The notes under the pieces were generated by a model that ran no database searches, was not told the origin of the DNA, and saw only the letters and a program-made list of their open reading frames with translations. The position numbers and the translations under genes were made by a program. From sequence record PZ445533.1: a stretch of 48,914 nucleotides of DNA; one strand, written 5' to 3'. Below, one piece after another: positions 20,680-48,914 of this stretch (positions within the stretch are counted from its first letter, which is position 1; every line of letters starts with the position of its first letter). Origin of the DNA: a phage.

Positions 20680-20745
20680 CTTAGTTGTTGTTGGATGCAA
20701 CTATACACGATCTTGGGCATCGCGTTTAGCAAAAAGTGCTATTTG
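20680..20745 (-). promoter_or_regulatory. Motif cassette upstream of cor-like operon
   Basis: Minus-strand reading AAATAGCACTTTTTGCTAAA, imperfect hairpin, TATAGT, CATCCAACAACAAC, RBS AAGGAG. Confidence 0.45.
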
Positions 20746-20749
20746 TTAT

Positions 20750-21110
20750 TTTTTGTTTTCCGGTGTTATCGAATTTAAGACGGCGTAAATTTAGCGCAAA
20801 ATTTAGACAACATAAGATCAATAAACAATCAATAAAATAGATATATACATATAAAATCAATAGTTTATTTATTTATGTATGTATATTTGTTTTTTCTTGT
20901 TATCTGCGTTTCTTGTGGTTTTGGTTGTTTGTGGTGATTTTTCTTTCTGAGTATCTGTATGTGCCATCATTCATGTGTATGTATATAATCCGGCGTATCT
21001 GAGAGAACAGGGGAACAAGAAAAATAACGCATATTAATCATTAACTTATGAGTCAAATCTGTTTTCTTGCCATCTGAGAACATTTAGAAAACAGAAAAAA
21101 CAAAACAGCT
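20750..21110. repeat. AT-rich divergent control region A with alternating purine-pyrimidine tracts and short iteron-like repeats
   Basis: ATCAATA x3, AAATTTAG x2, TGTATGTATAT tracts; homologous to 41200-41480. Confidence 0.5.
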
Positions 21111-21111
21111 A

Positions 21112-21139
21112 TTGACTAAATCAACCAAATGGCTACAAT
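21112..21139 (+). promoter_or_regulatory. Sigma70-like promoter (TTGACT-16-TACAAT) for recombination operon
   Basis: Read directly: TTGACT 21112-21117, 16-nt spacer, TACAAT 21134-21139, about 30 nt upstream of ATG 21170. Confidence 0.55.
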
Positions 21140-21169
21140 GCACGCATAAAGCAACAAGGAGCATTAAAG

Positions 21170-23455: not shown

Positions 23456-23486
23456 AAAAGCCCCGCATATGCGGGGCATTTTTTAG
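23456..23486. terminator. Bidirectional terminator between ssb (+) and fibre-like gene (-)
   Basis: AAAAAG CCCCGCAT ATGCGGGG CATTTTTT. Confidence 0.65.
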
Positions 23487-24220
23487 TCTAACGTGGTTGG
23501 TTTGTTTACCAGTGCCGCTACAACCGCTTTTAGCTCGTCAATTTCTTTTCTCATCTCATCGTTTTCCGCTTTCAATTTCTTAACTTGGTGAATCAGTGGA
23601 ACAGTGAGGCGGTCATACATAACGCCTTCCGCCACCATGCCATTACTTGAAGCAATGGCAGGATCTTCTCCTTCTTGCAGCGGTCGCCAGTGAACGTATT
23701 CCGGCGCAATTTCTCCAACCTCTTCCGCGATTAGCCCGTACCATCCCCAATCTTTACGGTCGCTTTCACAAGTTGACCGATACCACACAGGACGCATTTC
23801 AAGCATCAGATCCGCATATTCATCAATAACCGATTCTACGCTGCTCTTATAACGAGAAGAGGAAGTGGAGCGTAAAACTTGCGACACTCCAGCATTTGGA
23901 TCAAGCCATAAGTTTGCTGATTGAGCGGTTGTGTTAATATTAAATAAATAAAATGCATCGTTACCAGTTAGGGGGTAAAAACTCCCACTATACCTTCCGC
24001 TATCCAACTTGGATGATAGATCAGTTTGTTTTAGATACGGTTTCAACTTATTGTCAACATCAGCAGTTGATGCTTTTCCTGCAACATCCTGTTTTAGTGT
24101 CGAAACATCACTTTTCAGCTTCGTTATATCACCAGGAATAGTAGCAACATCCTGTTTTAGTGTTGAAACGTCATTTTTCAGCTTCGTTATATCACTAGGT
24201 ATAACAGTGACTGTAGCCAT
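23483..24220 (-). CDS. Tail fibre-like protein with C-terminal S74-type intramolecular chaperone domain
   Basis: 245 aa; N-terminal 21-aa tandem repeat (ITKLK.DVSTLKQDVA), C-terminal GLIAEEVGEIAPEYV segment typical of peptidase S74 IMC domains. Confidence 0.55.
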   Translation of the reverse strand: MATVTVIPSDITKLKNDVSTLKQDVATIPGDITKLKSDVSTLKQDVAGKASTADVDNKLKPYLKQTDLSSKLDSGRYSGSFYPLTGNDAFYLFNINTTAQSANLWLDPNAGVSQVLRSTSSSRYKSSVESVIDEYADLMLEMRPVWYRSTCESDRKDWGWYGLIAEEVGEIAPEYVHWRPLQEGEDPAIASSNGMVAEGVMYDRLTVPLIHQVKKLKAENDEMRKEIDELKAVVAALVNKPTTLD

Positions 24221-24232
24221 TTTCCTAACTCC

Positions 24233-24511
24233 TTAAGCCCATCCTCTAATAGACTGATCTAACTCAACCACGTATCCATTAAAAATTACGGCATCAAACT
24301 TATCATCAATGATTCGCACATTAACGAAATAGCCGTCGTTCTTTCGCGCAATCTCCTCGCCATCGTCAGATCGTGCAATTACTGTATAAGTATTGCCGAT
24401 TACATCGAGCAGGATTGCATCCTGAATGGATTCGTTATCATCCCAATTAATTTTTCCTAAAAAGGCCGAAAACTCGGCCTTGTCTGAAAATTTTAATGTT
24501 AAATCACGCAT
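24233..24511 (-). CDS. Hypothetical protein between fibre genes
   Basis: 92 aa; TAATG overlap with upstream fibre gene. Confidence 0.45.
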   Translation of the reverse strand: MRDLTLKFSDKAEFSAFLGKINWDDNESIQDAILLDVIGNTYTVIARSDDGEEIARKNDGYFVNVRIIDDKFDAVIFNGYVVELDQSIRGWA

Positions 24512-26487
24512 TAAACAATTTCCCCCAATTGATGATCTGTTAGTGCCTTGTGCCATATACGGAAGTTTCTAACGTGCCCGAAAAGATGACGTTCTCCCGT
24601 AGTTGTTTGTCCGCCAATCCTTATAGTAGCCGTTGATACTATATATCTCCATTCCGTTTTTGTTTCGCTTGATATTCTGGCATTACTTACACAGCAATTA
24701 TTGTAATCACTCTTTACTCTCATTCCCACGATCATCTTTTTTAGTTTTGCATTCTCGTAAACCCTTCTGTTTGATCCACCTATATCGCAATAAGGGAATC
24801 CGTCATTATCGCCTTCGGCAGACCCGAAAGCAAGAATAATTGCCGCTCCGGTTTGATGGCCGCCTGTATCAAAAACACGTGGCGCTGCGTTTGGCGTTAT
24901 ACTCCAGTTTTTATGAGCTTCCACAAGCAATGTAAACGGCAAATTGTAAAGGTTGTTTTTTATTGGCAATGCAACCATATCGCTTGCCCGTGTTACTGGA
25001 GTATCTTCTGTAATAATAAAGGATGAAGCGCACGCCCCACCTTCAACTTGAGGTGTCGCAATATAAATATAATCATCCGCACCAGTGCCAACTCCTTTTG
25101 CTGGGGCATACTGAACCATTCCACCTATCATATTTTCTGTATCAAGTGCCTTAATTGTCGCCTCAAAAAAGATCCATTTGCTTGCTTCATCTTTAACAGC
25201 CCTTGCAGTAATACGATTTGCAGCGCCGCCAGTTTTTTCAATTGATAAATCTGTCAGATTTACGTAAGCATCACCCAAAAATGCATAAGCAGATCCATCG
25301 TAGTTTTCAAATCGTAATCGGCATCTTAAATTTGGAGTCCCACTTTGCGCCCTGCATGATATGGTTACATACTTTTCATTTCCTGTTACATCAAAACCTC
25401 TACTGCCGGAAACGGTTACTATGTTAATCGATGAAGTTTGCCCTACCATTTCTGGTTTTAATGTAAATTTTGCGTACTGGAATCCGAAATTATCCACACC
25501 TGATCTATCTAAGATCATATTTGATGACTTGTTCCATTTTGAAGGATTGACGCTATTTATAAGAAGGTTTGTTCTTTGCCCCTCAATTAGCAGACCATCC
25601 TTTTCAAATCTAGGTTCATCAATAGCAGCATTAGTAAGCACCCCAGACTTATTAATGTAAGTAGCGGCTGATGCTCGTTTAAACTTAACTATCTTGTCAC
25701 CTGGCATCGTGATCTCATCGTCACCTATAACAATCTTTTTGTATGACGGCGAGAATCCGGTAATCATATCCAGGGAGTCATTAAATGGTATCCACACGTC
25801 CGGCAACGGTTGCAATAAGTCCTTGTAAGGTTCTGCCGCCTGCTTTGCGTATTCCTCCGCCTGATCTCGCGCACTTTCAGCTCCTGCCTTTGCAGTGTTC
25901 GCAGCGTCACGCGCGGATTCAGCGCCAGACTTTGCTGCTTCAGCGCCAGTCTTTGCAGTGTTTGCAGCGTCGCGCGCGGATTCAGCGGCAGCCTTTGCAG
26001 TATCAGCACCTTTCTTGCTATTCGCTGCATTTGTTGCGCTTGTCTTCGCGTTATTCTCGCTGGTTTTAGCTGCCTGCTGGCTTGCTGCTGCTGCGTCAGC
26101 ATTTGTCTTTACGTCTTCCTGGATCTTCTGTAGCTTATCCCAATCAAAATCCTTGATGATCTCAATAAATCCAGCAAACTCCGATTCCTTCCCCTGGTAA
26201 TAACGCAGCGTTTCCGCTACGTCTTGCGCAAGACCGTCAACCGTTAACGAGTCATGAAGCAAGATCAGGTAATTTGTCTTCTGGACTACCGCGCCGCCAG
26301 TAGTAATTGCGCGAATGCTTGTATCGCTAATCACTTCTGTAATCACAGCAGCTTGCAAAGGTTGAGCAAGAAAGAAAATAGTTGCGCCTGGGCGAATCAA
26401 TGTTAATTGCTCACGCCATTTTGTACCGTAACCAGTTACATAACCTTGCGCGTCCATAGACGCTTGGCCTTGTCTGTAAATCGCCAT
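24511..26487 (-). CDS. Tail fibre / receptor-binding protein
   Basis: 658 aa from ATG 26487 (AGGAGG RBS); Ala/Lys-rich repeated coiled region (AESARDAANTAK x3), C-terminal lectin/LamG-like region. Confidence 0.65.
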   Translation of the reverse strand: MAIYRQGQASMDAQGYVTGYGTKWREQLTLIRPGATIFFLAQPLQAAVITEVISDTSIRAITTGGAVVQKTNYLILLHDSLTVDGLAQDVAETLRYYQGKESEFAGFIEIIKDFDWDKLQKIQEDVKTNADAAAASQQAAKTSENNAKTSATNAANSKKGADTAKAAAESARDAANTAKTGAEAAKSGAESARDAANTAKAGAESARDQAEEYAKQAAEPYKDLLQPLPDVWIPFNDSLDMITGFSPSYKKIVIGDDEITMPGDKIVKFKRASAATYINKSGVLTNAAIDEPRFEKDGLLIEGQRTNLLINSVNPSKWNKSSNMILDRSGVDNFGFQYAKFTLKPEMVGQTSSINIVTVSGSRGFDVTGNEKYVTISCRAQSGTPNLRCRLRFENYDGSAYAFLGDAYVNLTDLSIEKTGGAANRITARAVKDEASKWIFFEATIKALDTENMIGGMVQYAPAKGVGTGADDYIYIATPQVEGGACASSFIITEDTPVTRASDMVALPIKNNLYNLPFTLLVEAHKNWSITPNAAPRVFDTGGHQTGAAIILAFGSAEGDNDGFPYCDIGGSNRRVYENAKLKKMIVGMRVKSDYNNCCVSNARISSETKTEWRYIVSTATIRIGGQTTTGERHLFGHVRNFRIWHKALTDHQLGEIV

Positions 26488-26502
26488 TTGTAAAATCCTC
26501 CT

Positions 26503-26522
26503 AAATAGCACTTTTTGCTAAT
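26503..26522 (+). repeat. Isolated copy of 21-bp box upstream of tail fibre gene (opposite orientation)
   Basis: AAATAGCACTTTTTGCTAAT located 10 nt beyond fibre gene RBS. Confidence 0.5.
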
Positions 26523-26593: not shown

Positions 26594-27523
26594 TTATAGC
26601 AGTGATTCGGGCTTGTAGAGTTTTCTTTCTACTCCCTGTTTAAAATTATCGTTAACAGGCATCATTATGTCAAGCCCTCTTTCCTCTGCCGCGATTATCA
26701 CATCACGATCATCTTTCCGGCAGACTACGCGCATTCTTCTTTCTCCTTTATATCTATGCGCAACCATTTCAAGATTTGAAGGAGTAAAACAGGCCCACAC
26801 CTCTTGACCAGTTGATAAATGAACATGCTGAGAATCAACCCAATCAAGGCACAAATAGATCGTCTTATCTGTACTACCTGTTTTAACAACAGATCCTCGC
26901 GTGTAGTCGCGAGCTAAAAACCAATCCTTTCCATCCTCATCAATGAAAAGCACGTTACACATTTCATCATCCAGCCCGTCATCATGCACCAGGTGACAAG
27001 GTAGCGCGTGAATGTATCGACCATCCTTGACGCCGCAATCATAATGACAATCTTCCGGCGGATATATCCCCTCATAAACGCTTAAAGGTGTGCGATCGAA
27101 TTTTAATGTTTTTGCCATCACTTTTTCGCAACATTCATGACTTGCCTGTTTCCCGAACGAGTAACCAGAAGAACGCGAAGCGCGTTTGTTTGCTCTGATC
27201 CTGTAATCTTGTGGCACTTTTCCGAGGAAGCGGCCCAAAATGTTGATGGCCTCGCTGTAAGGTTCGCCAGTTAATTTCATTAACCAACCGATCCCCGTGT
27301 CGTTGCCGCACACGTTGCAGATCGCGCCGCCGTCGCCCTCTTCATTTAGCTTATCAGTCCATCTAAAACGATCCTTACCGCCGCAGTGTGGGCAAGGTTG
27401 ATGCTTTTTGTTGAAAACATCGCTATGCAGTCCGCAAATGCTTTGTAGTGCTTCACGCCATAACCCCTTCATATATGGCAAAACATCTTCTTTCTGATAG
27501 GTCATAAAGTTTTCAGTATTCAT
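26594..27523 (-). CDS. DNA primase (zinc-binding domain)
   Basis: CPHCGG...CNVCG zinc-finger motif; start ATG 27523 chosen because it follows a terminator hairpin and GAGG RBS. Confidence 0.6.
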   Translation of the reverse strand: MNTENFMTYQKEDVLPYMKGLWREALQSICGLHSDVFNKKHQPCPHCGGKDRFRWTDKLNEEGDGGAICNVCGNDTGIGWLMKLTGEPYSEAINILGRFLGKVPQDYRIRANKRASRSSGYSFGKQASHECCEKVMAKTLKFDRTPLSVYEGIYPPEDCHYDCGVKDGRYIHALPCHLVHDDGLDDEMCNVLFIDEDGKDWFLARDYTRGSVVKTGSTDKTIYLCLDWVDSQHVHLSTGQEVWACFTPSNLEMVAHRYKGERRMRVVCRKDDRDVIIAAEERGLDIMMPVNDNFKQGVERKLYKPESLL

Positions 27524-27530
27524 GGCAAAC

Positions 27531-27570
27531 CTCAATAAAAAAGCCCAGCAAATATTATCATTTCGCTGGG
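27531..27570 (-). terminator. Hairpin + T-run between HTH gene and primase start
   Basis: Minus-strand GCCCAGCGAAATGATAATATTTGCTGGGC followed by TTTTTTATT, then RBS GAGG and ATG 27523. Confidence 0.5.
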
Positions 27571-27578
27571 CCTTATCA

Positions 27579-28055
27579 TTAGCTATTCGTGCTGTTATCA
27601 CCTTTGTAGAATCTTCCGCCTGGTTCGTAGTCTGAATTTTTGACTACGCGCAACATTTCGTATTTGTCGCAACGGGTAGTAAGAGGCTTGCCGTTAGAAT
27701 CAAACCGCAGATCTGGACGACAAAATGATGCGCGGTATCCTTTGCATCCATTATATTTGTAGTCGTTATGCACCTTTTGTGCTCCAGCGGCTGAAATCAT
27801 ACCACGCTTTCGCCATTGGTTAACGACTTGCTGAGATACGCGCAGACGTCGAGCCATAGCAGGAACACCGCCATAATACTCGATCAGAATATCCAGGCGA
27901 GATTTCAGGCTTGCTTTTACCTCATCTCGCAGGATAAGGAATCCGGTTCGGTGTTTTCGTGGCTTTTTGTCTTTACCTCGTCGCGTTCCGTTGTTACCGT
28001 TAATAGTGCGCTTGTCGATCTCACCCGTAGATACTGCAATTCGTGCATCTTTCAT
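27579..28055 (-). CDS. Cro/YdaS-like HTH DNA-binding protein with C-terminal Cys cluster
   Basis: GGVPAMARRLRVSQQVVNQWRKRG HTH signature; basic N-terminus; GAGGTGA RBS. Confidence 0.55.
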   Translation of the reverse strand: MKDARIAVSTGEIDKRTINGNNGTRRGKDKKPRKHRTGFLILRDEVKASLKSRLDILIEYYGGVPAMARRLRVSQQVVNQWRKRGMISAAGAQKVHNDYKYNGCKGYRASFCRPDLRFDSNGKPLTTRCDKYEMLRVVKNSDYEPGGRFYKGDNSTNS

Positions 28056-28065
28056 CTAGTCACCT

Positions 28066-28130
28066 CATAGCATTTTTTGTTAAAACAGTTTATTGTAATG
28101 AGTCTATTATATACTCCAAATGGCATTTTT
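28066..28130 (+). promoter_or_regulatory. Motif copy in divergent region between HTH gene and helicase
   Basis: ATAGCATTTTTTGTTAAAAC then TATTAT 22 nt after TTGTTA, no hairpin; about 60 nt upstream of helicase ATG. Confidence 0.4.
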
Positions 28131-28142
28131 TAAAGGTTTAAG

Positions 28143-30140
28143 ATGATTCCAAATATCGAAAAACAAATATCAGCATTAGGCGAGGCAGTAATAAAAAGCA
28201 TCCAAGAGCGATTCACGGTTGGCAATATAGTGCCTTATCCTTATCAGTGCGTTGCGTATGCAGAGATCGCAAAGCGCATGAAAAACTATGAGCATCCTTT
28301 CTTTGTTAAGGCTTCTGTATCGGCTGGCAAAACATTGATGTTTGCGATGGTTGCGGCGCAATGCCGCAAAATGGGATTGAAAATGATGGTCCTTGCTCGC
28401 CAGGCTGAAATTGTTGATCAGGATTCGGAAGAGATCAGCAATCTTGGCGTGCCAAACTCAATCTATTGCGCCGGACTGAAAACAAAAAGCGCATACTTTC
28501 CGATCGTAGTCGGTTCTGAGGGCACTGTAGTAAACGGATTGTTTAAGTCGTTAGGTGATTATGTTCCGCACGTTATCGGTATTGATGAATGTCACCAGGT
28601 GGATTGGGAGGATCTCGCGGACGCGATAGAAAATAATGAATCTTACCAGCAGATGACCACTAAGAAGGATTTGCCAGTACTGATTGGAGAAGAACAGCAA
28701 TTTGATTCCAATGGCGATCCAATGTTCGGAACAGGGCGCACACAGTACACCGTAATAATAATGGAAATGATGCGTAGGTGTCGCGAGGCATACGGGCACG
28801 AATTGCGAATATTCGGCATGACTGGATCTGAGTTTCGCGGCGTGGTTCCAATACTGGTTGAAGATAAGAACAAAAAGGGATTCTGGCGTGAGCAGGTGAC
28901 TAACATAGACACAAACTACTTAATCAAATTCGGTTCGGTAGTGCCAACAAACTTCGGCGACGTAGGCGACCTGGGTTATGACCTTTCAGAGTTCGAAGCC
29001 AGTAGCGAGGATGGCGTTTCAGACTTTGACGCTAAAACATTGCGCAAGATGGAAGAAAAGATCCATCAAGACGCAACAATGACACAGAAAATCATGGCTA
29101 AAGTCCATGAGATATGCAAAGACAGGAACGGAGTTTTAGTTACATGCGCAGGGGAAAGGCACTGCAAGGAGGCCGCCGCCGCACTGCCGCCAGGCGTTGA
29201 ATACAGGATCATAACTGGCAAGACTGGAGATAATCAGCGTAAAGAGTGGCTGAGGGAGGCATACGAGGGAAAAGTAAAATACATCTTCCAGGTACAGGCG
29301 CTTACCACTGGCGTTAACGTTCCGTTTTGGGATACTTCTGTAATACTGAGAAAGATAGGATCTCTAACATTGCTTATCCAGCTTTTGGGGCGCGGCATGC
29401 GACTGCTTAAGCAATGGCACATTGAGCAGGGATTCAAGAAAAAAGATCATCTTGTATTGGATTTTGCAGGTACTATGGATGAGTTAGGTGATTTGTATTT
29501 CGATCCAATCCTTGAGCAAGCGCAATTCCAAAAGAGATTTACAAACGGGAAAGAGCCTAAGACTTGTCCGATATGTGGAACGCTAAACAGCTTTTACGCT
29601 CGCCGATGTATGCACGTAGACGATAACGGGAAACGATGCGAGCATTTTTGGACTTACAGAATTTGCGAGGACCAGGTAGATCCGAGAACAAAAAAGATAA
29701 TCAAGCGCGGTTGCGGAACAAAAAACGACGTAGTGGCGAGAGTTTGCCGTTGTTGCGATATTTCTCTTGTCGATCCTAACGAGAAGTTAAGCGGTAAGCA
29801 CTACACCAAAAACGATTGGTGCAACGTTAAATATTTCCGCGTTGATATGACGAAAAACCAGAAAGGAATTGTTTTTTGCTATGAGCTTGAGGCCAACGGC
29901 GACACGTTCAAGGCATACGAAAGATTTTTCCCTGAGTCAGAAAGCAACATTTGCCGGACGATATGGAGAAAAATAGCATTGCAGCACATACCGGATCGCA
30001 AGATTGCTGGTATGGTGGCGAGCTATAGAAATGCGCGTAAAATAATGTCATACGCTCATCACATCATGCCGCCTGTACGCGTAACGCATCGCAAAAACGG
30101 CAAAGGTGAGGATAACATTGCAAAACGGGAGTTTGTTTAA
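28143..30140 (+). CDS. SF2 DNA helicase with C-terminal zinc-ribbon region
   Basis: Walker A ASVSAGKT, DECH box, TGS motif, QLLGRGMR motif VI; Cys-rich C-terminus. Confidence 0.85.
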   Translation: MIPNIEKQISALGEAVIKSIQERFTVGNIVPYPYQCVAYAEIAKRMKNYEHPFFVKASVSAGKTLMFAMVAAQCRKMGLKMMVLARQAEIVDQDSEEISNLGVPNSIYCAGLKTKSAYFPIVVGSEGTVVNGLFKSLGDYVPHVIGIDECHQVDWEDLADAIENNESYQQMTTKKDLPVLIGEEQQFDSNGDPMFGTGRTQYTVIIMEMMRRCREAYGHELRIFGMTGSEFRGVVPILVEDKNKKGFWREQVTNIDTNYLIKFGSVVPTNFGDVGDLGYDLSEFEASSEDGVSDFDAKTLRKMEEKIHQDATMTQKIMAKVHEICKDRNGVLVTCAGERHCKEAAAALPPGVEYRIITGKTGDNQRKEWLREAYEGKVKYIFQVQALTTGVNVPFWDTSVILRKIGSLTLLIQLLGRGMRLLKQWHIEQGFKKKDHLVLDFAGTMDELGDLYFDPILEQAQFQKRFTNGKEPKTCPICGTLNSFYARRCMHVDDNGKRCEHFWTYRICEDQVDPRTKKIIKRGCGTKNDVVARVCRCCDISLVDPNEKLSGKHYTKNDWCNVKYFRVDMTKNQKGIVFCYELEANGDTFKAYERFFPESESNICRTIWRKIALQHIPDRKIAGMVASYRNARKIMSYAHHIMPPVRVTHRKNGKGEDNIAKREFV

Positions 30141-30559
30141 TGGCTATAACTGATAAAGGAGATTATCTTGAGTTTTACGAAAGAGATCCAACCGACACTA
30201 GAAAGGAAGTTAATCACCAGATAGATAGCTTTCAGTGGTTGACTTATGCTCATCCTTACTTGCTGGCGTGGCATACGGTAAACGAGAATGAGAAGTCGAA
30301 AGTAACGGCGATGATTGATCAGCAGTCCGGCTTGGTTAAGGGGGTAAGCGATTTCATCATCCTGATTGGTTCAAACGGAAAATACCCCTTTGCAGCGATT
30401 GAGATCAAACGAGTTAATAAATCAGGCAAGGGGAAAGCATCACCAGTCAGCGATGAACAAAAGGCTTTTTTGCGTCGCGTTCGCAGTTTAGGAGGATTCG
30501 CTGCGGTCGCCTACGGATTTAATCAGTTTAAGTTAGCTATTGAATACATGCTTAAATAG
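30140..30559 (+). CDS. VRR-NUC domain nuclease
   Basis: GVSDFIIL...AAIEIKR...DEQKAFL pattern typical of VRR-NUC PD-(D/E)XK fold; TAATG overlap with helicase. Confidence 0.7.
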   Translation: MAITDKGDYLEFYERDPTDTRKEVNHQIDSFQWLTYAHPYLLAWHTVNENEKSKVTAMIDQQSGLVKGVSDFIILIGSNGKYPFAAIEIKRVNKSGKGKASPVSDEQKAFLRRVRSLGGFAAVAYGFNQFKLAIEYMLK

Positions 30560-30612
30560 CACTTTTTGTTAAAACTGGCGCGATGGATTGCGCCATAATT
30601 CAATAACACGAG
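30553..30612 (+). promoter_or_regulatory. Motif cassette (21-bp box + hairpin + ATAAT) upstream of dam
   Basis: AAATAGCACTTTTTGTTAAAAC with TAG as stop of VRR-NUC gene; hairpin GGCGCGATGGATTGCGCC; CATAAT 22 nt after TTGTTA. Confidence 0.5.
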
Positions 30613-31369: not shown

Positions 31370-31627
31370 ATGAAAAAAGAGAGAAGCGTTTATTTAAATG
31401 AAACTGGCGAGTGGTTGTTATTTCGCGCTATGGTGTGCGATGCACTTGATAAAAACCCTAACGTGAAAAAGATGATTGATTGCGATCCGTGGGAATTTTC
31501 AAGCGCATTAGATATGAGCTTTGAGGATACAAGAAAACTACCTCTTGAAAAATGGCACGAACAAATAAGAAATGACATGCAAGAGTTTGTCGATTCGTGG
31601 AATTTTCAGAACGGAATGATCCACTAA
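31370..31627 (+). CDS. Hypothetical protein
   Basis: 85 aa; stop TAA directly followed by the motif cassette. Confidence 0.5.
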   Translation: MKKERSVYLNETGEWLLFRAMVCDALDKNPNVKKMIDCDPWEFSSALDMSFEDTRKLPLEKWHEQIRNDMQEFVDSWNFQNGMIH

Positions 31628-31690
31628 TAGCACTTTTTGTTAAAACGCCCGGCATTTTGTCGGGCATAATTATTTCATCGAAACGAACGT
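31626..31690 (+). promoter_or_regulatory. Motif cassette
   Basis: AATAGCACTTTTTGTTAAAAC, hairpin GCCCGGCATTTTGTCGGGC, ATAATT, CATCGAAACGAAC, RBS GAGG. Confidence 0.5.
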
Positions 31691-34814: not shown

Positions 34815-34889
34815 CCTTTTTGGTTGGTTCGTTTCGATGAAACAAATATACCCGACACAAGGTCGGGAGTTTTAACAAAAAATGCTATT
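34815..34889 (-). promoter_or_regulatory. Motif cassette
   Basis: Minus-strand AATAGCATTTTTTGTTAAAAC, hairpin CCCGACCTTGTGTCGGG, TATATT, CATCGAAACGAACC. Confidence 0.5.
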
Positions 34890-35079: not shown

Positions 35080-35401
35080 CGCCCATCTCCCCTATTCTAG
35101 CTATATCCCTGATCCAGTCGTTGCGCATACCATCCAGGCTATACAATTCGAATCCGAAAGGCCGCTTTGACGATCCTTTGGACCAGTATTTTCCGCAGAC
35201 TCCATCTATATAACCAGCCGTCATCATTCTTGCGCAAAATTCCTTAGATGCAAGGCTGGCGAACATTCGCGGCGTAAGTCCGGCGGCCCGTGCGAGCCGC
35301 TCACATTCTCTATGCTGATAGATAAATTTGGCTATGTGCTGCCTGTTAAACCAATCGTATGACTCACACCATTTATACAGATCAAGCAAAAACATAATCA
35401 T
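35006..35401 (-). CDS. Hypothetical protein coupled to P-loop ATPase
   Basis: 131 aa; ATGA overlap with upstream 526-aa gene. Confidence 0.55.
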   Translation of the reverse strand: MIMFLLDLYKWCESYDWFNRQHIAKFIYQHRECERLARAAGLTPRMFASLASKEFCARMMTAGYIDGVCGKYWSKGSSKRPFGFELYSLDGMRNDWIRDIARIGEMGDDELFQAKANRQDLEALRRKFNIT

Positions 35402-36978
35402 CCCAGCAGTATTGGATTGACAAAAATAACACCATTAATCACACAAACATAATTTCTTTCTTCCAGCATTGGCAGTAAGTGCCCTTCTATCCTTTTCATT
35501 ACGCCAGCCTGACCAACGAAAGGTTTTACCTTTCTCGCTGATTCGTACAGGGCGCGGATATTCAGAATCCCTTTATTAGCCTTGCCGTGCCTCGTGATCA
35601 ATTCAATCAATTTACCCATTTCAGCATCATCACCAGCATAACCAGAAGCATTGGCGGCGCTAATGTATGTTTTGCTCAATTCCTGAAACATGATCAACGC
35701 CTCTTGCATTGTTTCCACGTCGATCTCTTTCGACTTCTGCGGGTATCCGGCAGGATTAAACCAGTTACGGATAACATGCAGGACGGAAGCAAGCCTGATC
35801 ACCTGTTTATCCATTTTACCCAGCGCACCGCGTAACATTGTATGAGAATACTTTCCTCCGTCTGCAAGATGCGGTTCCATATCCTGGCGAGCAATGTTGA
35901 GCACTCGCATAGCTGAACGGCTTATTTTCAGCGATATATTTGATTCGCTCATGATGTTATGCACCAATTGATAATATTGGGCTTTCAATTCAGAATCCAC
36001 CGCCTCATAGGTAGAATCACCATTTTCATCAATGAATGAGCGACGGCCTAAGAATGATTCCTCTCGGACCAACAAAAAACGCTCACTAACACCGATGCCT
36101 CGCGATCCAGCGTCCATGATTCCGCTTATCGTTTCATCCTGGGCTATGACGCTCATACATCCAAGCGCGCGAAAACTCATATTATTGTCAGCATTAGCGC
36201 GGGCAATTGATACGTGACCATTATCCCACGCCTTAAGCACTAACTCACTGTTAGTCTTCCTTTCGCTATTTGCATAGGTCAAGCCTAACAGACTGTTAAT
36301 ACTTGTTGCTTCATCAGATATTACGGCAAAGTTACCTTGCTTGTTGTTGATTTTCGCCAAGCCTTCTGGAGTTGTATCTGAAACAGGAAAAGTTATATCA
36401 CACATTTTTTCCAGCTTTTCCTCCAGATCCTCTTTTTCCTGGTATAGAGATTCCATATCAGCGCCGGATCTTTCGCTTTTCATCTCCTTTGCAAGACCTG
36501 CCAGCTTTGCCTGTATTTTCTTTCTTTCCTTGCGGCGTTGCTCGTTGATCTTCTCAACTTCCGCAATCATCGGAGCAATAGCCATGCTGTTGATCGCAGA
36601 TTTACCAGTTGACGGCGGCTGGCTTGTAACGACGTAAAGCGCAGTCGGCTGATCGGTTCCGTGATAGTCAACCGTAAAGCGTCCAAGCATAGCGGCAGAA
36701 ATGCAGCCGATAAAGTGCATGTAAGCCGATGATTCAGGGAATTGAACGGATCGCGCAATGCTGCGTGATAACTTGCCGACAACATCAATATCATTACCAA
36801 GAGAAATAACGGGGTAGCGATCGTGACCGCTATTCACATCCTTTACGTCGCCCCAAAAGCTGGACGACTGGCGATAGCCGTTAGCCTGAATTGATACGCG
36901 AACTGGCGAAAGGTTCTGGCTTTCAGCCATAGCGATTATTTGTTGTGGAGTTAATTTGTTCGTTTCTAATGAAAACAT
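35398..36978 (-). CDS. P-loop NTPase of unknown function (deviant Walker A PPSTGKS, Walker B VISDEA)
   Basis: 526 aa; SF3-helicase-like Walker A variant, Walker B hhhhDE about 90 aa downstream with charged coiled insert; first gene behind motif cassette. Confidence 0.5.
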   Translation of the reverse strand: MFSLETNKLTPQQIIAMAESQNLSPVRVSIQANGYRQSSSFWGDVKDVNSGHDRYPVISLGNDIDVVGKLSRSIARSVQFPESSAYMHFIGCISAAMLGRFTVDYHGTDQPTALYVVTSQPPSTGKSAINSMAIAPMIAEVEKINEQRRKERKKIQAKLAGLAKEMKSERSGADMESLYQEKEDLEEKLEKMCDITFPVSDTTPEGLAKINNKQGNFAVISDEATSINSLLGLTYANSERKTNSELVLKAWDNGHVSIARANADNNMSFRALGCMSVIAQDETISGIMDAGSRGIGVSERFLLVREESFLGRRSFIDENGDSTYEAVDSELKAQYYQLVHNIMSESNISLKISRSAMRVLNIARQDMEPHLADGGKYSHTMLRGALGKMDKQVIRLASVLHVIRNWFNPAGYPQKSKEIDVETMQEALIMFQELSKTYISAANASGYAGDDAEMGKLIELITRHGKANKGILNIRALYESARKVKPFVGQAGVMKRIEGHLLPMLEERNYVCVINGVIFVNPILLG

Positions 36979-37659: not shown

Positions 37660-37727
37660 CTCCTTTGTTTGTTCGATGTGATTATGCCAGGTTTTTACAC
37701 CTGGCTTTTAACAAAAAGTGCTATTTT
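37660..37727 (-). promoter_or_regulatory. Motif cassette
   Basis: Minus-strand motif containing methyltransferase stop TAG, hairpin GCCAGGTGTAAAAACCTGGC, ATAATC, TCGAACAAACAAAGGAG. Confidence 0.5.
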
Positions 37728-40867: not shown

Positions 40868-40874
40868 TTACTAT

Positions 40875-40946
40875 CTCCTGAGCGGTTCGTTTCGATGTGT
40901 GTAATGTACCCGATCAGGCGGCCTGATTTTTAACAAAAAGTGCTAT
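40875..40946 (-). promoter_or_regulatory. Motif cassette at head of leftward small-gene operon
   Basis: Minus-strand motif, hairpin ATCAGGCCGCCTGAT, TACATT, CATCGAAACGAACC, RBS AGGAG. Confidence 0.5.
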
Positions 40947-40949
40947 TTG

Positions 40950-41485
40950 ACGGTTAGCACCAGGATTGTGATCGAAATAATCAAAAGTAATCATTCGTAA
41001 TCAAATCACGTCAAAATGATGATTGCCTTTGCAAATTTGATGAGAAAAGTAATCACGTTTAATCATTGGTTGCAGGGGAGATAGTGAAACCCTCCACTCT
41101 TGCCTCACTTTTCCGCCTGGCTGTCAGTGGTTGTTATGTTCCGTTCCCGCCTGTTCTTTTGTTGACCTTCCGCAAAATACGATAACAAAAAATAACAAAC
41201 AATACCTATATAATACATTGAAAAATAAGGATTATTTATTTATATGTATCTATATATTCTCTTTTGTTATCTTGGTTATTGTGGTATTTGGTGGGGGTAT
41301 ATAGTTTTTGTGTATCTGTATGTGTGTATGGGTATGTAGGGGCATATATATCTATATGGCACTTTCCGCGAGAAAACTTCGATAACAGGCAATGATAACA
41401 TTGATTTATAAGGAAAAATAACGCCCATATTGTTATTGTGCCACCATATAAAATTGATAAAACACGCGGGAACAAGAAAAAACAG
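40950..41485. repeat. AT-rich divergent control region B, homologous to region A, with (G)TAATCA iteron-like repeats
   Basis: Five TAATCA copies 40975-41075; shared blocks TTATTTATTTAT, GTATCTGTATGTG, GGGAACAAGAAAAA with region A. Confidence 0.5.
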
Positions 41486-41514
41486 TTGACACATTAAATA
41501 GCATTATTGATAAT
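41486..41514 (+). promoter_or_regulatory. Sigma70-like promoter (TTGACA-17-GATAAT) for rightward operon
   Basis: TTGACA 41486-41491, 17-nt spacer, GATAAT 41509-41514, RBS AGGAGG and ATG 41544 downstream. Confidence 0.6.
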
Positions 41515-41543
41515 GCCGACACCTAACAACCAGGAGGTAGAAA

Positions 41544-42008
41544 ATGAGCGAGCAATCATTCACTGACACGCTGCGCCGTGCAGCTATTATGCTGGCTAAT
41601 GGCGAGGAAGAGACGATCAAGATTCCTGACGCGTATTTGCAGGTCCACATGTTCGGCAAGAAGTCGGCAAGCAATCCGGCGGCCTACATTCGCCAGATCA
41701 TGAGTCGAGTGCCAGAAGTCGCCGAGCGGGGGCGCGTATCCGTTACCCGTGGCGTTTACGGGCCGGAAGATGAAAACTTCGGTAGCACTTTCTACGAGGT
41801 GCGGATTGTTGAAGGCCGTCGCAAGGTTTACAACAAAGAGGCACTGGAAAGGGCAGTGCGCCAGGCTAAGCGCAAGGTTGCAGAGGCGATCATTGATATG
41901 TCACCAAACCTGGCAAACTATGCGCCGGAAGAGTACGAAACATTATCAAAGGCCGTCGCTGACTTTCACGCGATGATCAAAAAAACTTTCCTGGAGGATG
42001 AGCAATGA
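41544..42008 (+). CDS. Hypothetical protein, first gene of rightward operon
   Basis: 154 aa; AGGAGG RBS; canonical sigma70-like promoter about 30 bp upstream. Confidence 0.6.
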   Translation: MSEQSFTDTLRRAAIMLANGEEETIKIPDAYLQVHMFGKKSASNPAAYIRQIMSRVPEVAERGRVSVTRGVYGPEDENFGSTFYEVRIVEGRRKVYNKEALERAVRQAKRKVAEAIIDMSPNLANYAPEEYETLSKAVADFHAMIKKTFLEDEQ

Positions 42009-42277
42009 AAAAGGCATTAATCAGCGTTTTGGCGGCAATGGCATTCCTGACCGGATGCAAAGAAGATGGCGCGCATGTTGGCAATGTGCAGATGGCTAAC
42101 CCTGGTGATGACTACAGCGTAAGGGAGCTATTCACCGCTGACGGTTGCACCGTTTACCGATTCTATGACGATCGCACTGTTTACTTCACCAACTGCAAGG
42201 GCACTACTAGCTGGGAAGTGTCGAAAAGCAATGGCAAAGGCACGAAGACAGAACATATGACCGTCGAGACAAAATAG
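42005..42277 (+). CDS. Lipoprotein (second superinfection-exclusion candidate)
   Basis: 90 aa; signal peptide and lipobox LTGC; ATGA overlap with upstream gene; stop TAG within motif. Confidence 0.55.
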   Translation: MKKALISVLAAMAFLTGCKEDGAHVGNVQMANPGDDYSVRELFTADGCTVYRFYDDRTVYFTNCKGTTSWEVSKSNGKGTKTEHMTVETK

Positions 42278-42335
42278 CACTTTTTGTTAAAACTCAAATG
42301 TGGGGCCAGGTATAATGGCCTCACTTTCAACGAGA
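42272..42335 (+). promoter_or_regulatory. Motif cassette
   Basis: Motif with TAG stop of lipoprotein gene; hairpin GGCC...GGCC with TATAAT in loop, 21 nt after TTGTTA. Confidence 0.5.
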
Positions 42336-42346
42336 GGGGAAACGCG

Positions 42347-42574
42347 ATGGAAAGTTTAATCATCCAGAAGAAAATGAAGTGCGTCAGTGTAGCGCCAGGT
42401 TGCGGCTTTATGTTCACGGTGGGAAATATCTACTCCGCGCAGAAGATGAGAACATCAACCGGATCGTTTTACGTCAATAATAATCAGGGATTCCGCATGT
42501 TCCTGAACGGTCAAAGTGGCAACGAAATTTGCGCTTACGCCGACCTTATCGCAACCTTTGAGGAAGTGAAATAA
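42347..42574 (+). CDS. Hypothetical protein
   Basis: 75 aa from ATG 42347 with GAGGGG RBS downstream of motif cassette. Confidence 0.45.
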   Translation: MESLIIQKKMKCVSVAPGCGFMFTVGNIYSAQKMRTSTGSFYVNNNQGFRMFLNGQSGNEICAYADLIATFEEVK

Positions 42575-42987
42575 TGGATGACTGCATGCCGTTTCCTGGA
42601 TATAGAAATAAAGATGGTTACGGTCAGGTTTGCATAAATGGTGTAGTTGTTGGTGCTCACGGGTTAGCATATTGCAGAGCTAACAACCTTTCACTTAATG
42701 ATATACGTGGAATGGTTGTAAGGCATAGGTGTGATAATCCGCCGTGCTGCAATCCTGATCATTTGGAGATAGGAACGCAAAGGGATAACGTTATTGATTG
42801 CATAAAGCGAGGAAGGTTTAAAAGTAATGCTGGTGTTAATAATCCAAGAGCAAAATTGAATTACGACACAGCAGAAGAGATTCGCAAAGAGTACGCTAGC
42901 GGCGTAGTGTCTATGGGGGCGCTAGCTGAGAAATACATGGTTGGTAAAAGCACAATAAAAAGAGTTATTGACCGGAGCATTTGGTGA
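42574..42987 (+). CDS. HNH homing endonuclease
   Basis: HRCDNPPCCNPDHLEIGTQRDN HNH motif with Cys pairs; free-standing between small genes. Confidence 0.75.
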   Translation: MDDCMPFPGYRNKDGYGQVCINGVVVGAHGLAYCRANNLSLNDIRGMVVRHRCDNPPCCNPDHLEIGTQRDNVIDCIKRGRFKSNAGVNNPRAKLNYDTAEEIRKEYASGVVSMGALAEKYMVGKSTIKRVIDRSIW

Positions 42988-48387: not shown

Positions 48388-48914
48388 ATGGCTAAAAACG
48401 TTGAGCCTGCTGTAAAGGCATTAAATTTCAAAGAGTTATACAATAAAACTTATGGCGATATTGTCACGCTAAACAACCGCCACAAGTACACGCCGGAACA
48501 GGTTTTTGACATGGCGATCCGCTATTTCACTTGGGCCGAAGAGAATCACATTCAGGCGGCTGAAACTGCTTCCTTTCAGGGTGACGTGTACGAGAGCAGA
48601 GTTTACAAGCCTCGCGTTTTCACGGTTAACGGATTCAGCTTGTATCTCGGCGTTACTGAGGCGGCTGTAAGCAAGTGGCGTAAAGAGCCTGGATTCTGCG
48701 ATGTGATGGAGTTTGTTGATAAAGTAATTTACGAGCAAAAATTCCAGCTTGCGGCAAATAACATGATTAATGCTGGATTTATCGGTAAAGAGATCGGCGT
48801 AGAGAAGCCAGCAACAGTGAGCGTTGAAGCTAGCGCGGCAGCTAATGCAAGCATTGACGCAGTAACTGCCGATGAGGTGAAAGAGGCTGTTATTGATATT
48901 CTGGAGCAACTTTA
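48388..48914 (+). CDS. terS: Terminase small subunit, 3'-partial (runs off window end)
   Basis: Own translation MAKNVEPAVKALNFKELYNKTYGDIVTL... open to the last base; AAGGAGG RBS; extended -10 promoter upstream; position immediately before terL. Confidence 0.65.
   Translation, partial: MAKNVEPAVKALNFKELYNKTYGDIVTLNNRHKYTPEQVFDMAIRYFTWAEENHIQAAETASFQGDVYESRVYKPRVFTVNGFSLYLGVTEAAVSKWRKEPGFCDVMEFVDKVIYEQKFQLAANNMINAGFIGKEIGVEKPATVSVEASAAANASIDAVTADEVKEAVIDILEQL

What the first reader, a model, noticed from the sequence alone, without database searches (positions are those of the whole stretch)
40950..41543. AT-rich divergent control region B with iteron-like repeats and alternating purine-pyrimidine tracts (candidate origin / early promoter hub)
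About 590-bp non-coding stretch between the leftward small-gene operon (start 40867) and the rightward operon (start 41544). It contains five (G)TAATCA repeats within 100 bp (40975-41075), long TG/TA alternating tracts (TGTATCTGTATGTGTGTATGGGTATGTAG) and a canonical TTGACA-17-GATAAT promoter at 41486-41514. About 250 bp is homologous to region A at 20830-21030. Such structure is typical of phage replication origins and/or strong divergent early promoters with bent DNA.
Basis: seen in the sequence. Interest (0 to 1): 0.55.

Follow-up and report, generated by a model that had tools for sequence, protein, structure and literature searches.

The report
T1-like phage packaging-start and early-promoter region
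This non-coding stretch of a T1-like coliphage most likely holds the site where DNA packaging starts and one of the phage's few host-type early promoters, plus a very AT-rich upstream module that has a twin elsewhere in the genome and whose role (promoter control or replication origin) is still open.

Summary
The window is a T1-like phage (Drexlerviridae, Warwickvirus). Region 40868-41543 has no conserved ORF. It holds five same-strand TAATCA repeats, spaced 10, 10, 52 and 10 bp, against 0.1-0.2 expected. It also holds a TTGACA-17-GATAAT promoter.

It has a true paralog. A profile built only from "region A" of 25 relatives finds 41131-41537 at E 5e-23, and finds exactly two copies per genome.

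The region is composite:
1. **40928-40948:** a copy of the known T1-family 21-nt repeat, which serves the leftward operon.
2. **40949-41115:** the TAATCA cluster, present in B only. It corresponds to where pac was mapped by restriction digests in TLS. The T1, SU57, haarsle, PHB17 and YSP2 records also end there. It is therefore probably the packaging start, not origin iterons.
3. **41131-41485:** the AT-rich module. Together with its twin it is the least stable DNA in the genome. It carries phased TTGTT/AACA units that are the most conserved elements across genera.
4. **41486-41514:** the sigma-70 promoter. It is equivalent to one of only three such promoters reported in TLS.

Whether the twin modules regulate early promoters or are replication origins cannot be settled by computation. 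No DnaA boxes, GATC clusters, RNA structure or conserved ORFs were found.

The parts
40868..40927 (-). Leader of the leftward operon. It holds the ribosome-binding site, a -10-like TACATT (AATGTA on the + strand, 40903-40908) and a small GC hairpin (40913-40927).
   Evidence: Sequence. It belongs to a roughly 63-nt promoter/leader cassette that also occurs at 31626-31688 and 34827-34889 (I1, I2, D20).
40928..40948 (-). Copy of the T1-family 21-nt direct repeat (AAATAGCACTTTTTGTTAAAA on the - strand). It is a promoter-associated element for the leftward operon.
   Evidence: It is one of 16 copies in the window, each lying upstream of a gene and pointing the same way as that gene (D1, D2). It matches the TLS consensus aaATAGCACnnnTTGnTAAAA, whose function the TLS authors list as unknown.
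40949..41115 (.). Candidate pac region, meaning terminase recognition and the first packaging cut. It holds five phased TAATCA repeats (40978-41003 and 41050-41065), TGATGATTG and TTTGATGAG elements, and the conserved GTTGCAGGGGAGATAGTGAAACC (41069-41091).
   Evidence: - The repeats are non-random.
- The cluster is absent from region A.
- TLS position 1, the restriction-mapped pac, lies in the equivalent TGATT cluster.
- The T1, haarsle, PHB17, YSP2 and SU57 records end at the equivalent place.
- This is the most curved 200 bp of the window in a wedge model.
- The stretch 40868-41155 is about 96% identical in many phages whose sequence further right differs.
41131..41485 (+). AT-rich module, a paralog of 20738-21110. 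From left to right it holds:
- TGTT units (41131-41165);
- GATAACAAAAAATAACAAAC (41181-41200);
- a nearly pure A+T centre (41201-41256);
- the inverted unit TTTTGTTATCTTGGTTATTG (41260-41283);
- a T/G-rich, C-poor tract (41263-41345);
- two GATAACA copies (41381-41400);
- an AACA/A-tract array directly upstream of the -35 hexamer (41461-41485).
   Evidence: - Profile and pairwise homology.
- Lowest duplex stability in the window.
- GATAACA/TGTTATC occurs 6 times in the two modules against 0.19 expected.
- Repeat map.
- In region A, 8 of the 12 blocks that are at least 90% conserved across 25 Tempevirinae sequences are TTGTT/TGTT/AACA/GAACA.
- The most G-poor and the most C-poor 80-nt stretches of the genome lie side by side here.
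41486..41514 (+). Sigma-70 promoter TTGACA-17-GATAAT for the rightward operon of small genes. The transcription start is inferred near 41521.
   Evidence: Consensus scan. TTGAC(A/T) plus nATAAT is conserved in tonnikala, pSf-1, vojen, haarsle, PHB17, YSP2 and TLS. It is equivalent to TLS P01.
41532..41546 (+). Ribosome-binding site AGGAGG (41532-41537) and start codon (41544) of the first rightward gene, a 154-aa DUF7174 protein.
20738..21168 (+). Region A, the twin module. It has an AT-rich core with TTGTT/AACA units and the sigma-70 promoter TTGACT-16-TACAAT (21112-21139), upstream of the exonuclease VIII-like gene (21170).
   Evidence: The promoter is conserved in all but one (L043) of the 43 IMG/VR loci, T1 among them. 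It is equivalent to TLS P51.

Best explanation
Region B is the junction region next to the genome end of a T1-like phage. It carries three separate functions side by side.

1. **Left edge.** A 21-nt family repeat with its leader cassette starts the leftward operon.
2. **Packaging site (40949-41115).** This stretch holds helically phased TAATCA/TGATT repeats on intrinsically curved DNA. The inference is that the small terminase subunit binds these repeats and that the first cut falls at about 41010-41110. Headful packaging would then run rightward, through the small-gene operon, towards the terminase and structural genes.
3. **Promoter-linked module (41131-41514).** This roughly 400-bp module is duplicated in the genome. 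It consists of a very AT-rich, easily melted centre bracketed by 10-bp-phased TTGTT/AACA units, followed by a near-consensus sigma-70 promoter. Host RNA polymerase would use this promoter straight after injection. The conserved TTGTT/AACA units are inferred to be binding sites for a protein that acts on both twin modules. That protein is probably phage-encoded, because the flanking bases of the unit differ between lineages that infect the same host. Its most likely role is to boost or later shut off the immediate-early promoters.

**Shown:** the anatomy, the paralogy, the conservation of the units, and the positional equivalence to mapped genome ends.

**Inferred:** terminase binding, the cut position, and the nature and effect of the protein that binds the units.
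For: **Identity of the phage.**

**Packaging site.**
- The TLS paper maps pac about 5,882 bp from a HindIII site and about 2.7 kb from an EcoRV site (Fig. S1 legend).
- In the TLS record these sites are at 5876 and 2733. Position 1 is therefore the mapped pac, and it lies inside the TGATT-repeat cluster of the region-B equivalent.
- The T1 record is opened in the same cluster and is annotated with a 2.8-kb terminal repeat starting at position 1.
- SU57's PhageTerm end, which coincides with a step in read coverage, lies just after its repeat cluster. That paper states that the pac of T1-like phages is in this untranslated region.
- The haarsle, PHB17 and YSP2 records end at window-equivalent positions 41075-41127.
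- The cluster is specific to B, non-random and curved.

**Promoter.**. TLS lists only P01, P51 and P57 as sigma-70-like promoters. They correspond to window positions 41486, 21112 and 28134 (minus strand).

**Module.**
- Exactly two copies per genome, in the window and in TLS.
- The two modules are the least stable DNA in the window.
- Conserved TTGTT/AACA footprint.
- Lineage-specific versions of the unit are enriched in both modules of each genome: GATAACA in the window, TGTAACA in T1, GTGAACA/TGGAACA in TLS, and GATATAC/GTATACA in SU57.
- The module always includes the promoter.
- A mosaic breakpoint at about 41155 separates the pac cluster, which travels with the left operon, from the module, which travels with the right operon.
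Against: - No experiment exists for this phage.
- The TLS mapping has gel-level resolution. Its final base was chosen by resemblance to the P22 pac site.
- Some records may have been opened by analogy with T1 rather than from data.
- The site is 7.3 kb from the small terminase gene, unlike P22, Sf6 or SPP1. No P22-type pac consensus is present.
- The strong curvature is not reproduced at the equivalent clusters of T1, TLS and SU57.
- No protein has been tied to the TTGTT/AACA units.
- The flanking bases of the unit are not uniform within one genome. In tonnikala, modules A and B differ.
- The AACA array next to the -35 hexamer may simply be an UP-like A-tract.
- The motifs were chosen after inspecting the sequences, so the shuffle statistics are optimistic.
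Confidence: 0.6

Rival explanations
1. The twin AT-rich modules (41131-41485 and 20738-21110) are the phage's two replication origins. In this reading an initiator binds the phased TTGTT/AACA units on both sides. The roughly 60-bp A+T centre then melts, helped by the adjacent promoter, and the phage helicase and primase are loaded. This does not conflict with the promoter or pac assignments.
For: - The two modules are the two least stable duplex stretches in the window.
- The repeat units are inverted around an almost pure A+T centre. Base composition also switches strand at the centre.
- The units are the best-conserved elements of the module.
- The units have lineage-specific flanking bases, which suits a phage-encoded binding protein.
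- There are exactly two homologous copies at distant sites. From memory, SPP1 oriL/oriR and P4 ori/crr are arranged this way.
- The phage has its own primase and an MCM-like AAA+ helicase with a C-terminal winged helix.
- Two papers on T1-like phages report finding no origin: TLS and SU57.
Against: - There are no DnaA boxes and no GATC cluster. An IHF consensus occurs once, in region A only.
- The units are 5-7 bp long, not classical 17-22-bp iterons.
- Neither module lies in or next to a replication gene.
- The module is inherited together with the promoter and the downstream early genes. It is swapped between close relatives along with them. This points to a promoter-centred role.
- The helicase shows no demonstrated link to the P4 alpha origin-binding domain.
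- No replication data exist.
Confidence: 0.3
2. The TAATCA cluster is not pac. Instead it is an operator or iteron array for a regulator of the adjacent leftward promoter, or for an initiator. In this reading packaging starts elsewhere.
For: - Five same-strand repeats at 10-bp phasing are typical of proteins that bind in tandem on one face of the helix.
- The cluster begins right next to the leftward 21-nt repeat.
- It is 7.3 kb from the small terminase gene.
- Several record ends could be by convention rather than measurement.
Against: - The TLS restriction mapping and the SU57 coverage step place the end in the equivalent cluster independently.
- The other 15 copies of the 21-nt repeat have no such cluster next to them.
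- No rival pac-like sequence was found in the terminase gene.
Confidence: 0.2
3. The AT-rich core has no sequence-specific function. It would be spacer DNA, a recombination junction between mosaic modules, or only a general upstream A/T element of a strong promoter.
For: - A mosaic breakpoint lies at its left edge.
- AT-rich upstream DNA is common at strong promoters (established knowledge).
- The B module diverges quickly between close relatives.
Against: - Region A stays alignable over about 430 bp across genera whose exonuclease proteins are only 73-81% identical.
- Discrete blocks are at least 90% conserved in a background of 63%.
- A profile built from region A recovers region B at E 5e-23.
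- The motifs are enriched well beyond what base composition explains.
Confidence: 0.07
4. The core encodes a small hydrophobic peptide or a non-coding RNA.
For: - Gene callers mark a 31-aa ORF at 41244-41339 in many contigs.
- The + strand folds with z -1.9, because of the inverted repeat.
Against: - The ORF is interrupted after 3 codons in pSf-1, vojen and haarsle, and it has no counterpart in region A of other genera.
- The spacing to any ribosome-binding site is poor.
- Rfam gives nothing at gathering score, and only chance-level hits at E up to 1.
- The minus strand folds with z -0.27.
- The internal promoter-like site in region A is not conserved.
Confidence: 0.03

Closest known systems
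pac region of T1-like phages (T1, TLS, SU57)
   Same: - Same place in the genome map: the untranslated region between the divergent clusters of small genes.
- It lies just right of the leftward 21-nt repeat.
- It is a cluster of TGATT/TAATCA-type short repeats.
- The TLS pac was mapped here by restriction digests, and the SU57 end by PhageTerm.
   Different: - The repeat words differ between lineages. The window uses TAATCA, T1 uses TGATTG and ATTGTTGC, and TLS uses GATTTGATT.
- The exact cut and the bases recognised are not defined in any of these phages.
- Strong predicted curvature is seen only in the window.
P1 pac and SPP1 pac (from memory: hexamer repeats TGATCA/G flanking the cut in P1; pacL/pacC/pacR with phased, bent DNA in SPP1)
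   Same: - Short repeats lie in two groups (3 + 2) on either side of a roughly 45-bp centre.
- The repeats are phased with the helix and the DNA is predicted to be curved.
- TGATTA, the reverse complement of TAATCA, differs from the P1 hexamer by one base.
   Different: - The repeats contain no GATC, so there can be no Dam control of the P1 type.
- The site is 7.3 kb from the terminase genes, whereas SPP1 pac lies next to gene 1.
- No binding or cleavage data exist.
Sigma-70 early promoters P01 and P51 of phage TLS
   Same: - They are positional and sequence equivalents of the window promoters at 41486 and 21112.
- They are two of only three canonical promoters in a genome that otherwise uses the 21-nt repeat.
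   Different: Nothing of substance differs. The TLS paper does not describe the upstream twin modules.
Twin origins or cis replication regions: SPP1 oriL/oriR and P4 ori/crr (from memory)
   Same: Two homologous non-coding regions lie far apart in one genome. Each has repeated short binding units next to AT-rich DNA.
   Different: - No initiator has been identified and no replication data exist.
- The units are shorter than those of SPP1 or P4.
- The modules are tied to promoters rather than to replication genes.
- A P4 alpha-type origin-binding domain was not demonstrated in the phage helicase.
Lambda OL/OR (paralogous operator regions controlling the early promoters; established knowledge)
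   Same: Two homologous control regions, each attached to an early promoter, share repeated binding units.
   Different: - The modules are far longer, about 350 bp upstream of the promoter.
- The units do not overlap the core promoter.
- The phage is virulent, and no repressor is known.

Membership tests
T1-family 21-nt direct repeat (aaATAGCACnnnTTGnTAAAA) | Match to the consensus, intergenic, pointing in the direction of transcription, about 76 nt upstream of a start codon | tested here: met
   On the minus strand, 40948-40928 reads AAATAGCACTTTTTGTTAAAA. It lies 81 nt upstream of the ATG at 40867.
pac site of a headful-packaging phage | Coincides with the physical end of the first-headful DNA | tested here: inconclusive
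   This was tested only by positional homology. The TLS mapped pac, the SU57 PhageTerm end, and the ends of the T1, haarsle, PHB17 and YSP2 records all fall in or at the right edge of the equivalent cluster. No reads from this phage were available.
pac site of a headful-packaging phage | Specific binding by the small terminase subunit and cleavage by terminase | not testable with these tools
   The small terminase is a gp3-type protein (PF16677). Binding cannot be computed.
pac site of a headful-packaging phage | Lies within or next to the small terminase gene (P22, Sf6 and SPP1 pattern) | tested here: not met
   The small terminase gene starts at 48388, which is 7.3 kb to the right. The same distance is seen in T1 and TLS.
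pac site of a headful-packaging phage | P22-type pac consensus AAGATTTATCTG | tested here: not met
   With up to 2 mismatches there are 4 matches in the window, against 6.5 expected. None lies in region B or in the terminase gene.
Sigma-70 promoter | -35 and -10 hexamers with a 16-18 bp spacer | tested here: met
   TTGACA-17-GATAAT, 11 of 12 positions.
Sigma-70 promoter | Conserved at the same place in relatives | tested here: met
   It is listed as P01 in TLS.
Sigma-70 promoter | Mapped transcription start | not testable with these tools
   No transcript data for a T1-like phage were found in the library.
Iteron-type replication origin | AT-rich, easily unwound element | tested here: met
   41162-41461 and 20798-21097 are the least stable 300-bp stretches of the window (z 4.1 and 4.2).
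Iteron-type replication origin | Array of repeated initiator-binding sites beside the AT-rich element | tested here: inconclusive
   Conserved, phased TTGTT/AACA units flank the centre. They are short, and no initiator is known.
Iteron-type replication origin | Host initiation signals (DnaA boxes, GATC cluster, IHF site) | tested here: not met
   Each region holds one 1-mismatch DnaA-box match, which is chance level, and 2 GATC sites. An IHF consensus occurs in region A only.
Iteron-type replication origin | Located in or beside the initiator or replication genes | tested here: not met
   The primase is at 26594-27601, and the helicases are at 28143-30140 and 35398-36978. The modules lie at 20.9 kb and 41.3 kb.
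Iteron-type replication origin | Replication starts there | not testable with these tools
   This needs marker-frequency or nascent-strand mapping.
Z-DNA-forming alternating purine-pyrimidine tract | A long perfect alternation (tens of bp, usually CG or TG repeats) | tested here: not met
   The longest runs are 14 nt in B and 16 nt in A.
Known RNA family | Match to an Rfam model at gathering score | tested here: not met
   There are 0 hits in the whole window. At E up to 1, only chance-level hits appear.

The most novel reading that the evidence does not exclude
The two homologous AT-rich modules, 41131-41485 and 20738-21110, are the replication origins of T1-like phages. These origins have never been mapped. 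In this reading each is a promoter-coupled unwinding element bracketed by phased TTGTT/AACA sites for a phage-encoded initiator. They would work as a pair, as in SPP1 oriL/oriR or P4 ori/crr. One of them would sit about 100 bp from the packaging start.
Probability: 0.28. Interest if true: 0.65.

Novelty: new member of a known kind. Interest (0 to 1): 0.4.

Why it matters
T1 is one of the classical coliphages, yet its origin of replication, the logic of its early transcription and the exact form of its pac site remain undefined. This analysis splits a single odd-looking AT-rich region into separate parts that can each be tested.

- **A packaging-site candidate with defined repeats.** This is useful for work on transduction and for engineering phage genomes.
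- **One of the very few host-type promoters.** This is useful for understanding host take-over and for synthetic phage design.
- **A duplicated upstream module that I did not find described in the papers read here.** Its conserved TTGTT/AACA units give a concrete handle for finding the protein that binds it. They also allow a direct test of whether these modules are the missing origins.

If the module turns out to be only promoter control, the result is ordinary but still sharpens the annotation of a large phage family.

Tried and rejected
**Coding potential.** The small ORFs in both modules are not conserved.

**RNA gene.** No Rfam family matches and no significant fold was found.

**Host-factor sites.** DnaA, Fur, ArcA and Chi matches are absent or at chance level, and there is no GATC cluster. 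An IHF consensus occurs in region A only. The resemblances I had recalled to Fur boxes (TAATCATT), ArcA or OmpR direct repeats, and Chi-like GT-rich DNA did not survive these scans.

**Z-DNA.** The alternating runs are at most 16 nt.

**P22-type pac consensus.** Matches are at chance level.

**Link to P4 alpha.**
- I suspected that the DUF3987 helicase carries a P4 alpha-like origin-binding domain. The TLS repeat GTGAACA resembles the P4 iteron as I remember it.
- A sequence search of solved structures found nothing.
- A confident model (pLDDT 89) matches MCM subunits at low TM-scores. This indicates an AAA+ helicase with a C-terminal winged helix and no specific tie to P4 alpha.

**Covariation of candidate binding proteins with unit type.** I compared the helix-turn-helix regulator, the helicase C-terminus and the small terminase across the window, T1, TLS and, for the small terminase only, SU57. 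Three or four lineages cannot separate covariation from phylogeny.

**Curvature as a shared property of pac clusters.** This holds for the window only.

**Contig ends in public assemblies as evidence for physical ends.** The ten contigs returned, each about 50 kb, all run through region B.

**Literature.** The T1 genome paper and the Rtp paper are not held. No transcript or replication mapping of a T1-like phage was found.
Full report
**What the window is.** Megablast of the region finds 84 phage records. The best are Escherichia phages AV105, brachmannus, JK16 and PeterMerian, at 97-99% identity. PeterMerian is classified as Drexlerviridae, Tempevirinae, Warwickvirus. The window begins at the large terminase gene. 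The small terminase gene (48388-48912, PF16677) runs to its end.

**Check of the observation.**
- *Non-coding stretch.* The stretch 40868-41543 lies between a leftward gene starting at 40867 and a rightward gene starting at 41544.
- *TAATCA repeats.* The five copies are at 40978, 40988, 40998, 41050 and 41060. All are on the + strand, spaced 10, 10, 52 and 10 bp, so they lie on one face of the helix. Local dinucleotide shuffles give 0.09-0.17 copies.
- *Promoter.* TTGACA-17-GATAAT is at 41486-41514.
- *TG/TA tract.* The tract exists, but the longest perfect purine/pyrimidine alternation is 14 nt in B and 16 nt in A. That is too short to argue for Z-DNA.
blastn aligns 41173-41536 with 20808-21161 at E 1e-19, and the local alignment score is 7.9 sd above shuffles.
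- *Independent test of the paralogy.* I built a profile only from region A of 25 distinct Tempevirinae sequences. It hits 41131-41537 at E 4.9e-23 over almost its whole length. It also hits the equivalent place in TLS (121-519, E 2.9e-29). It finds exactly two copies per genome.
- *Composition.* Regions A and B are the two least stable duplex stretches of the window at every scale tried.

**The region is composite.** Aligning A with B shows shared flanks and a shared core. It also shows a roughly 165-bp insertion in B (40949-41115) that holds all the TAATCA repeats. The parts are best taken one at a time.

**Left edge.** Positions 40928-40948 are one of 16 copies of a 21-nt repeat. Each copy lies upstream of a gene and points the same way as that gene. 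The TLS re-annotation paper describes this repeat (consensus aaATAGCACnnnTTGnTAAAA, about 76 nt before start codons). It lists the repeat's function as an open question. The copy here belongs to a roughly 63-nt promoter/leader cassette present three times in the window (I1, I2, D20).

**The TAATCA cluster is probably the packaging start.**
- *TLS.* The paper reports a submolar pac-HindIII fragment of about 6 kb. [quoted passage not shown] S1 legend).
- *TLS record.* HindIII is at 5876 and EcoRV at 2733, so position 1 is the mapped pac. Position 1 lies between the last leftward gene (end 49707) and the first rightward gene (start 589). It sits inside a run of TGATT/GATTTGATT repeats just right of the leftward 21-nt repeat.
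- *T1.* The T1 reference record is opened inside the equivalent TGATTG/ATTGTTGC repeats. It is annotated with a terminal repeat at 1-2800.
- *SU57.* This phage belongs to another subfamily. Its authors chose the PhageTerm end that coincided with an abrupt change in read depth. They state that pac in T1 and other T1-like phages lies in this untranslated region. That end falls right after the SU57 repeat cluster.
- *Other records.* The haarsle, PHB17 and YSP2 records end at window-equivalent positions 41075, 41085 and about 41108-41127.
- *Estimate from TLS spacing.* The TLS module begins 120 bp after pac. Applying the same spacing to the window puts the cut near 41010, between the two groups of TAATCA repeats.

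**Caveats on the pac reading.**
- Gel mapping is coarse.
- Some records may follow the T1 convention rather than data.
- The site is 7.3 kb from the terminase genes.
- No P22-type consensus is present.
- In a wedge model that passed controls with phased and unphased A-tracts, 40950-41149 is the most curved 200 bp of the window (z -6.4). The equivalent clusters of T1, TLS and SU57 are not among the four most curved stretches of their genomes. The wedge angles were recalled from memory. I therefore treat the curvature as a property of this lineage, not of the family.

**The promoter.** The -35 TTGAC(A/T) and a -10 nATAAT are present upstream of the first rightward gene in tonnikala, pSf-1, vojen, haarsle, PHB17, YSP2 and TLS. 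The region A promoter is conserved in all but one (L043) of the 43 IMG/VR loci, T1 among them. Supplementary Table S1 of the TLS paper lists only three sigma-70-like promoters: P01, P51 and P57. They correspond to the window promoters at 41486, 21112 and 28134 (minus strand). Regions A and B therefore carry two of the three units that unmodified host polymerase should read first. This last step is an inference.

**The twin AT-rich module: layout.** Each module has this order:
- TGTT units;
- a pair of units 10 bp apart (in B, GATAACAAAAAATAACAAAC);
- about 60 bp of almost pure A+T;
- the same pair inverted (TTTTGTTATCTTGGTTATTG);
- a T/G-rich tract;
- more AACA units up to the -35 hexamer.

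The most G-poor 80 nt of the whole window (41182-41261 and 20797-20876) lie directly beside the most C-poor 80 nt (41263-41342, with 2 C and 28 G, and 20860-20939).

**The twin AT-rich module: conservation and enrichment.**
- Across 25 distinct Tempevirinae copies of region A, the mean identity to the window base is 63%. Of the 12 blocks that are at least 90% conserved, 8 are TTGTT, TGTT, AACA or GAACA. The other four are the two promoter hexamer regions, AAAT and ATCA.
- Seven-base versions of the unit are enriched in both modules of each genome, and they differ by lineage:
  - GATAACA in the window: 6 in the modules against 10 in the rest of the genome, with 0.19 expected from local shuffles;
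  - TGTAACA in T1: 6 against 2;
  - GTGAACA and TGGAACA in TLS;
  - GATATAC and GTATACA in SU57.
- These motifs were picked after looking at the data, so the statistics are generous.
- In tonnikala the two modules differ in flavour.
- Because all these phages infect E. coli, lineage-specific flanking bases favour a phage-encoded binding protein. This is an inference.

**What the module does.** Two readings survive.

*Promoter control, which I rank first.*
- The module always includes the promoter, in both copies and across the family.
- A mosaic breakpoint at about 41155 shows that the module is exchanged together with the rightward early genes. The pac cluster stays with the left operon.
- The unit array runs right up to the -35 hexamer, where it also looks like an UP-type A-tract.
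- The third densest cluster of the units lies at the third sigma-70 promoter (27861-28160).

*Replication origin.*
- The module contains the most easily melted DNA in the genome.
- The repeat units are inverted around an A+T centre.
- Two distant homologous copies exist, as I recall for SPP1 and P4.
- The phage has its own primase and helicases.
- Two papers on T1-like phages report finding no origin.

Against the origin reading, there are no DnaA boxes or GATC clusters, the modules are not next to replication genes, and the units are very short. The two readings are compatible with each other, as in phage origins that depend on transcription.

**Things ruled out.**
- *Small ORFs.* They are not conserved.
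- *RNA gene.* There is no Rfam family and no significant fold.
- *Fur, ArcA and Chi look-alikes.* None reached even loose thresholds.
- *Helicase.* The DUF3987 helicase gave a confident model (pLDDT 89). Its best structural matches are MCM subunits at low TM-scores. I could not connect it to the P4 alpha origin-binding domain.

**Verdict.**
- The "iteron-like repeats" are better explained as the packaging start.
- The "origin" remains a live but unproven reading of the AT-rich twin modules.
- The pac location at region level and the promoters are already in the literature for relatives.
- I did not find the twin-module structure with its conserved TTGTT/AACA units described in the papers I read. 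The TLS paper explicitly reports finding no iteron-like repeats.

Noticed in passing
window 1564-46007 (16 copies, e.g. 30554-30576, 42272-42294, 37700-37726): The 21-nt repeat AAATAGCACTTTTTGTTAAAA is regularly followed by a GC hairpin and then a -10-like hexamer about 22 nt after TTGTTA. Its 3' end, TTAAAA, can serve as a weak -35 hexamer with an 18-19-nt spacer; the consensus scan picks this up at 42287-42316. It therefore looks like a second promoter class with an upstream ATAGCAC element, perhaps dependent on an activator. The TLS authors list its function as unknown.
   Followed up: partly
window 31626-31688, 34827-34889, 40885-40947: A roughly 63-nt cassette (21-nt repeat, hairpin, -10-like hexamer and a leader containing CATCGAAACGAACC) occurs three times, at 71-87% complementarity between copies.
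   Followed up: no
window 35398-36978 (- strand): The 526-aa DUF3987 'DNA helicase' gives a confident model (pLDDT 89.4, pTM 0.87). Its best matches among solved structures are MCM2-7 subunits (E down to 9e-6, TM 0.30-0.37). It ends in a helix-turn-helix plus beta-hairpin that looks like a winged helix. The putative recognition helix is identical in the window and TLS but different in T1.
   Followed up: partly
window 27861-28160: This is the third densest cluster of the RWAACA/TGTT units. It lies at the divergent promoter region between the Cro-like 158-aa regulator/primase operon (sigma-70 promoter at 28134-28106, minus strand, equivalent to TLS P57) and the helicase gene at 28143.
   Followed up: partly
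window about 41155: A sharp mosaic breakpoint. Dozens of phages share 40868-41155 at about 96% identity and then diverge. Only 16 records carry the whole of region B. The B module evolves much faster than the A module among close relatives.
   Followed up: partly
GenBank records MN158216.1 (BEK26) and MN158217.1 (BEC3), equivalent to window 20728 and 20880: Two deposited genomes begin inside region A. This may be an assembly break in extremely AT-rich DNA, or it may be a real feature of that site.
   Followed up: no
GenBank records MG0656xx ('Campylobacter phage' A14b, A13a, E6 and others): Eighteen records named as Campylobacter jejuni phages carry region A at about 74% identity and look like T1-like coliphage genomes. 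They are probably contaminants or mislabelled hosts.
   Followed up: no
window 24081-24203, 25876-26001, 18571-18946: There are tandem 63-nt repeats (86-92% identical) inside the leftward ORFs 23483-24220 and 24511-26511. There are also roughly 100-130-nt periodic repeats inside the large tail protein gene. These are probably repeated structural domains.
   Followed up: no
window 41069-41091; T1 positions 1-9; PHB17 position 1; haarsle position 1: The sequence GTTGCAGGGGAGATAGTGAAACC at the right edge of the TAATCA cluster has recognisable counterparts at which three independent records begin: GAGGGGATAGAGAAAC in haarsle, GTGAAACC in PHB17 and GTTGCATGG in T1. It may mark the cut site itself.
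   Followed up: partly
window 42574-42987: The fourth gene of the rightward early operon translates to a protein with an HNH-like cysteine/histidine pattern (…HRCDNPPCCNPDHLE…). This suggests a homing endonuclease inserted among the early genes. It was not checked against any family library.
   Followed up: no
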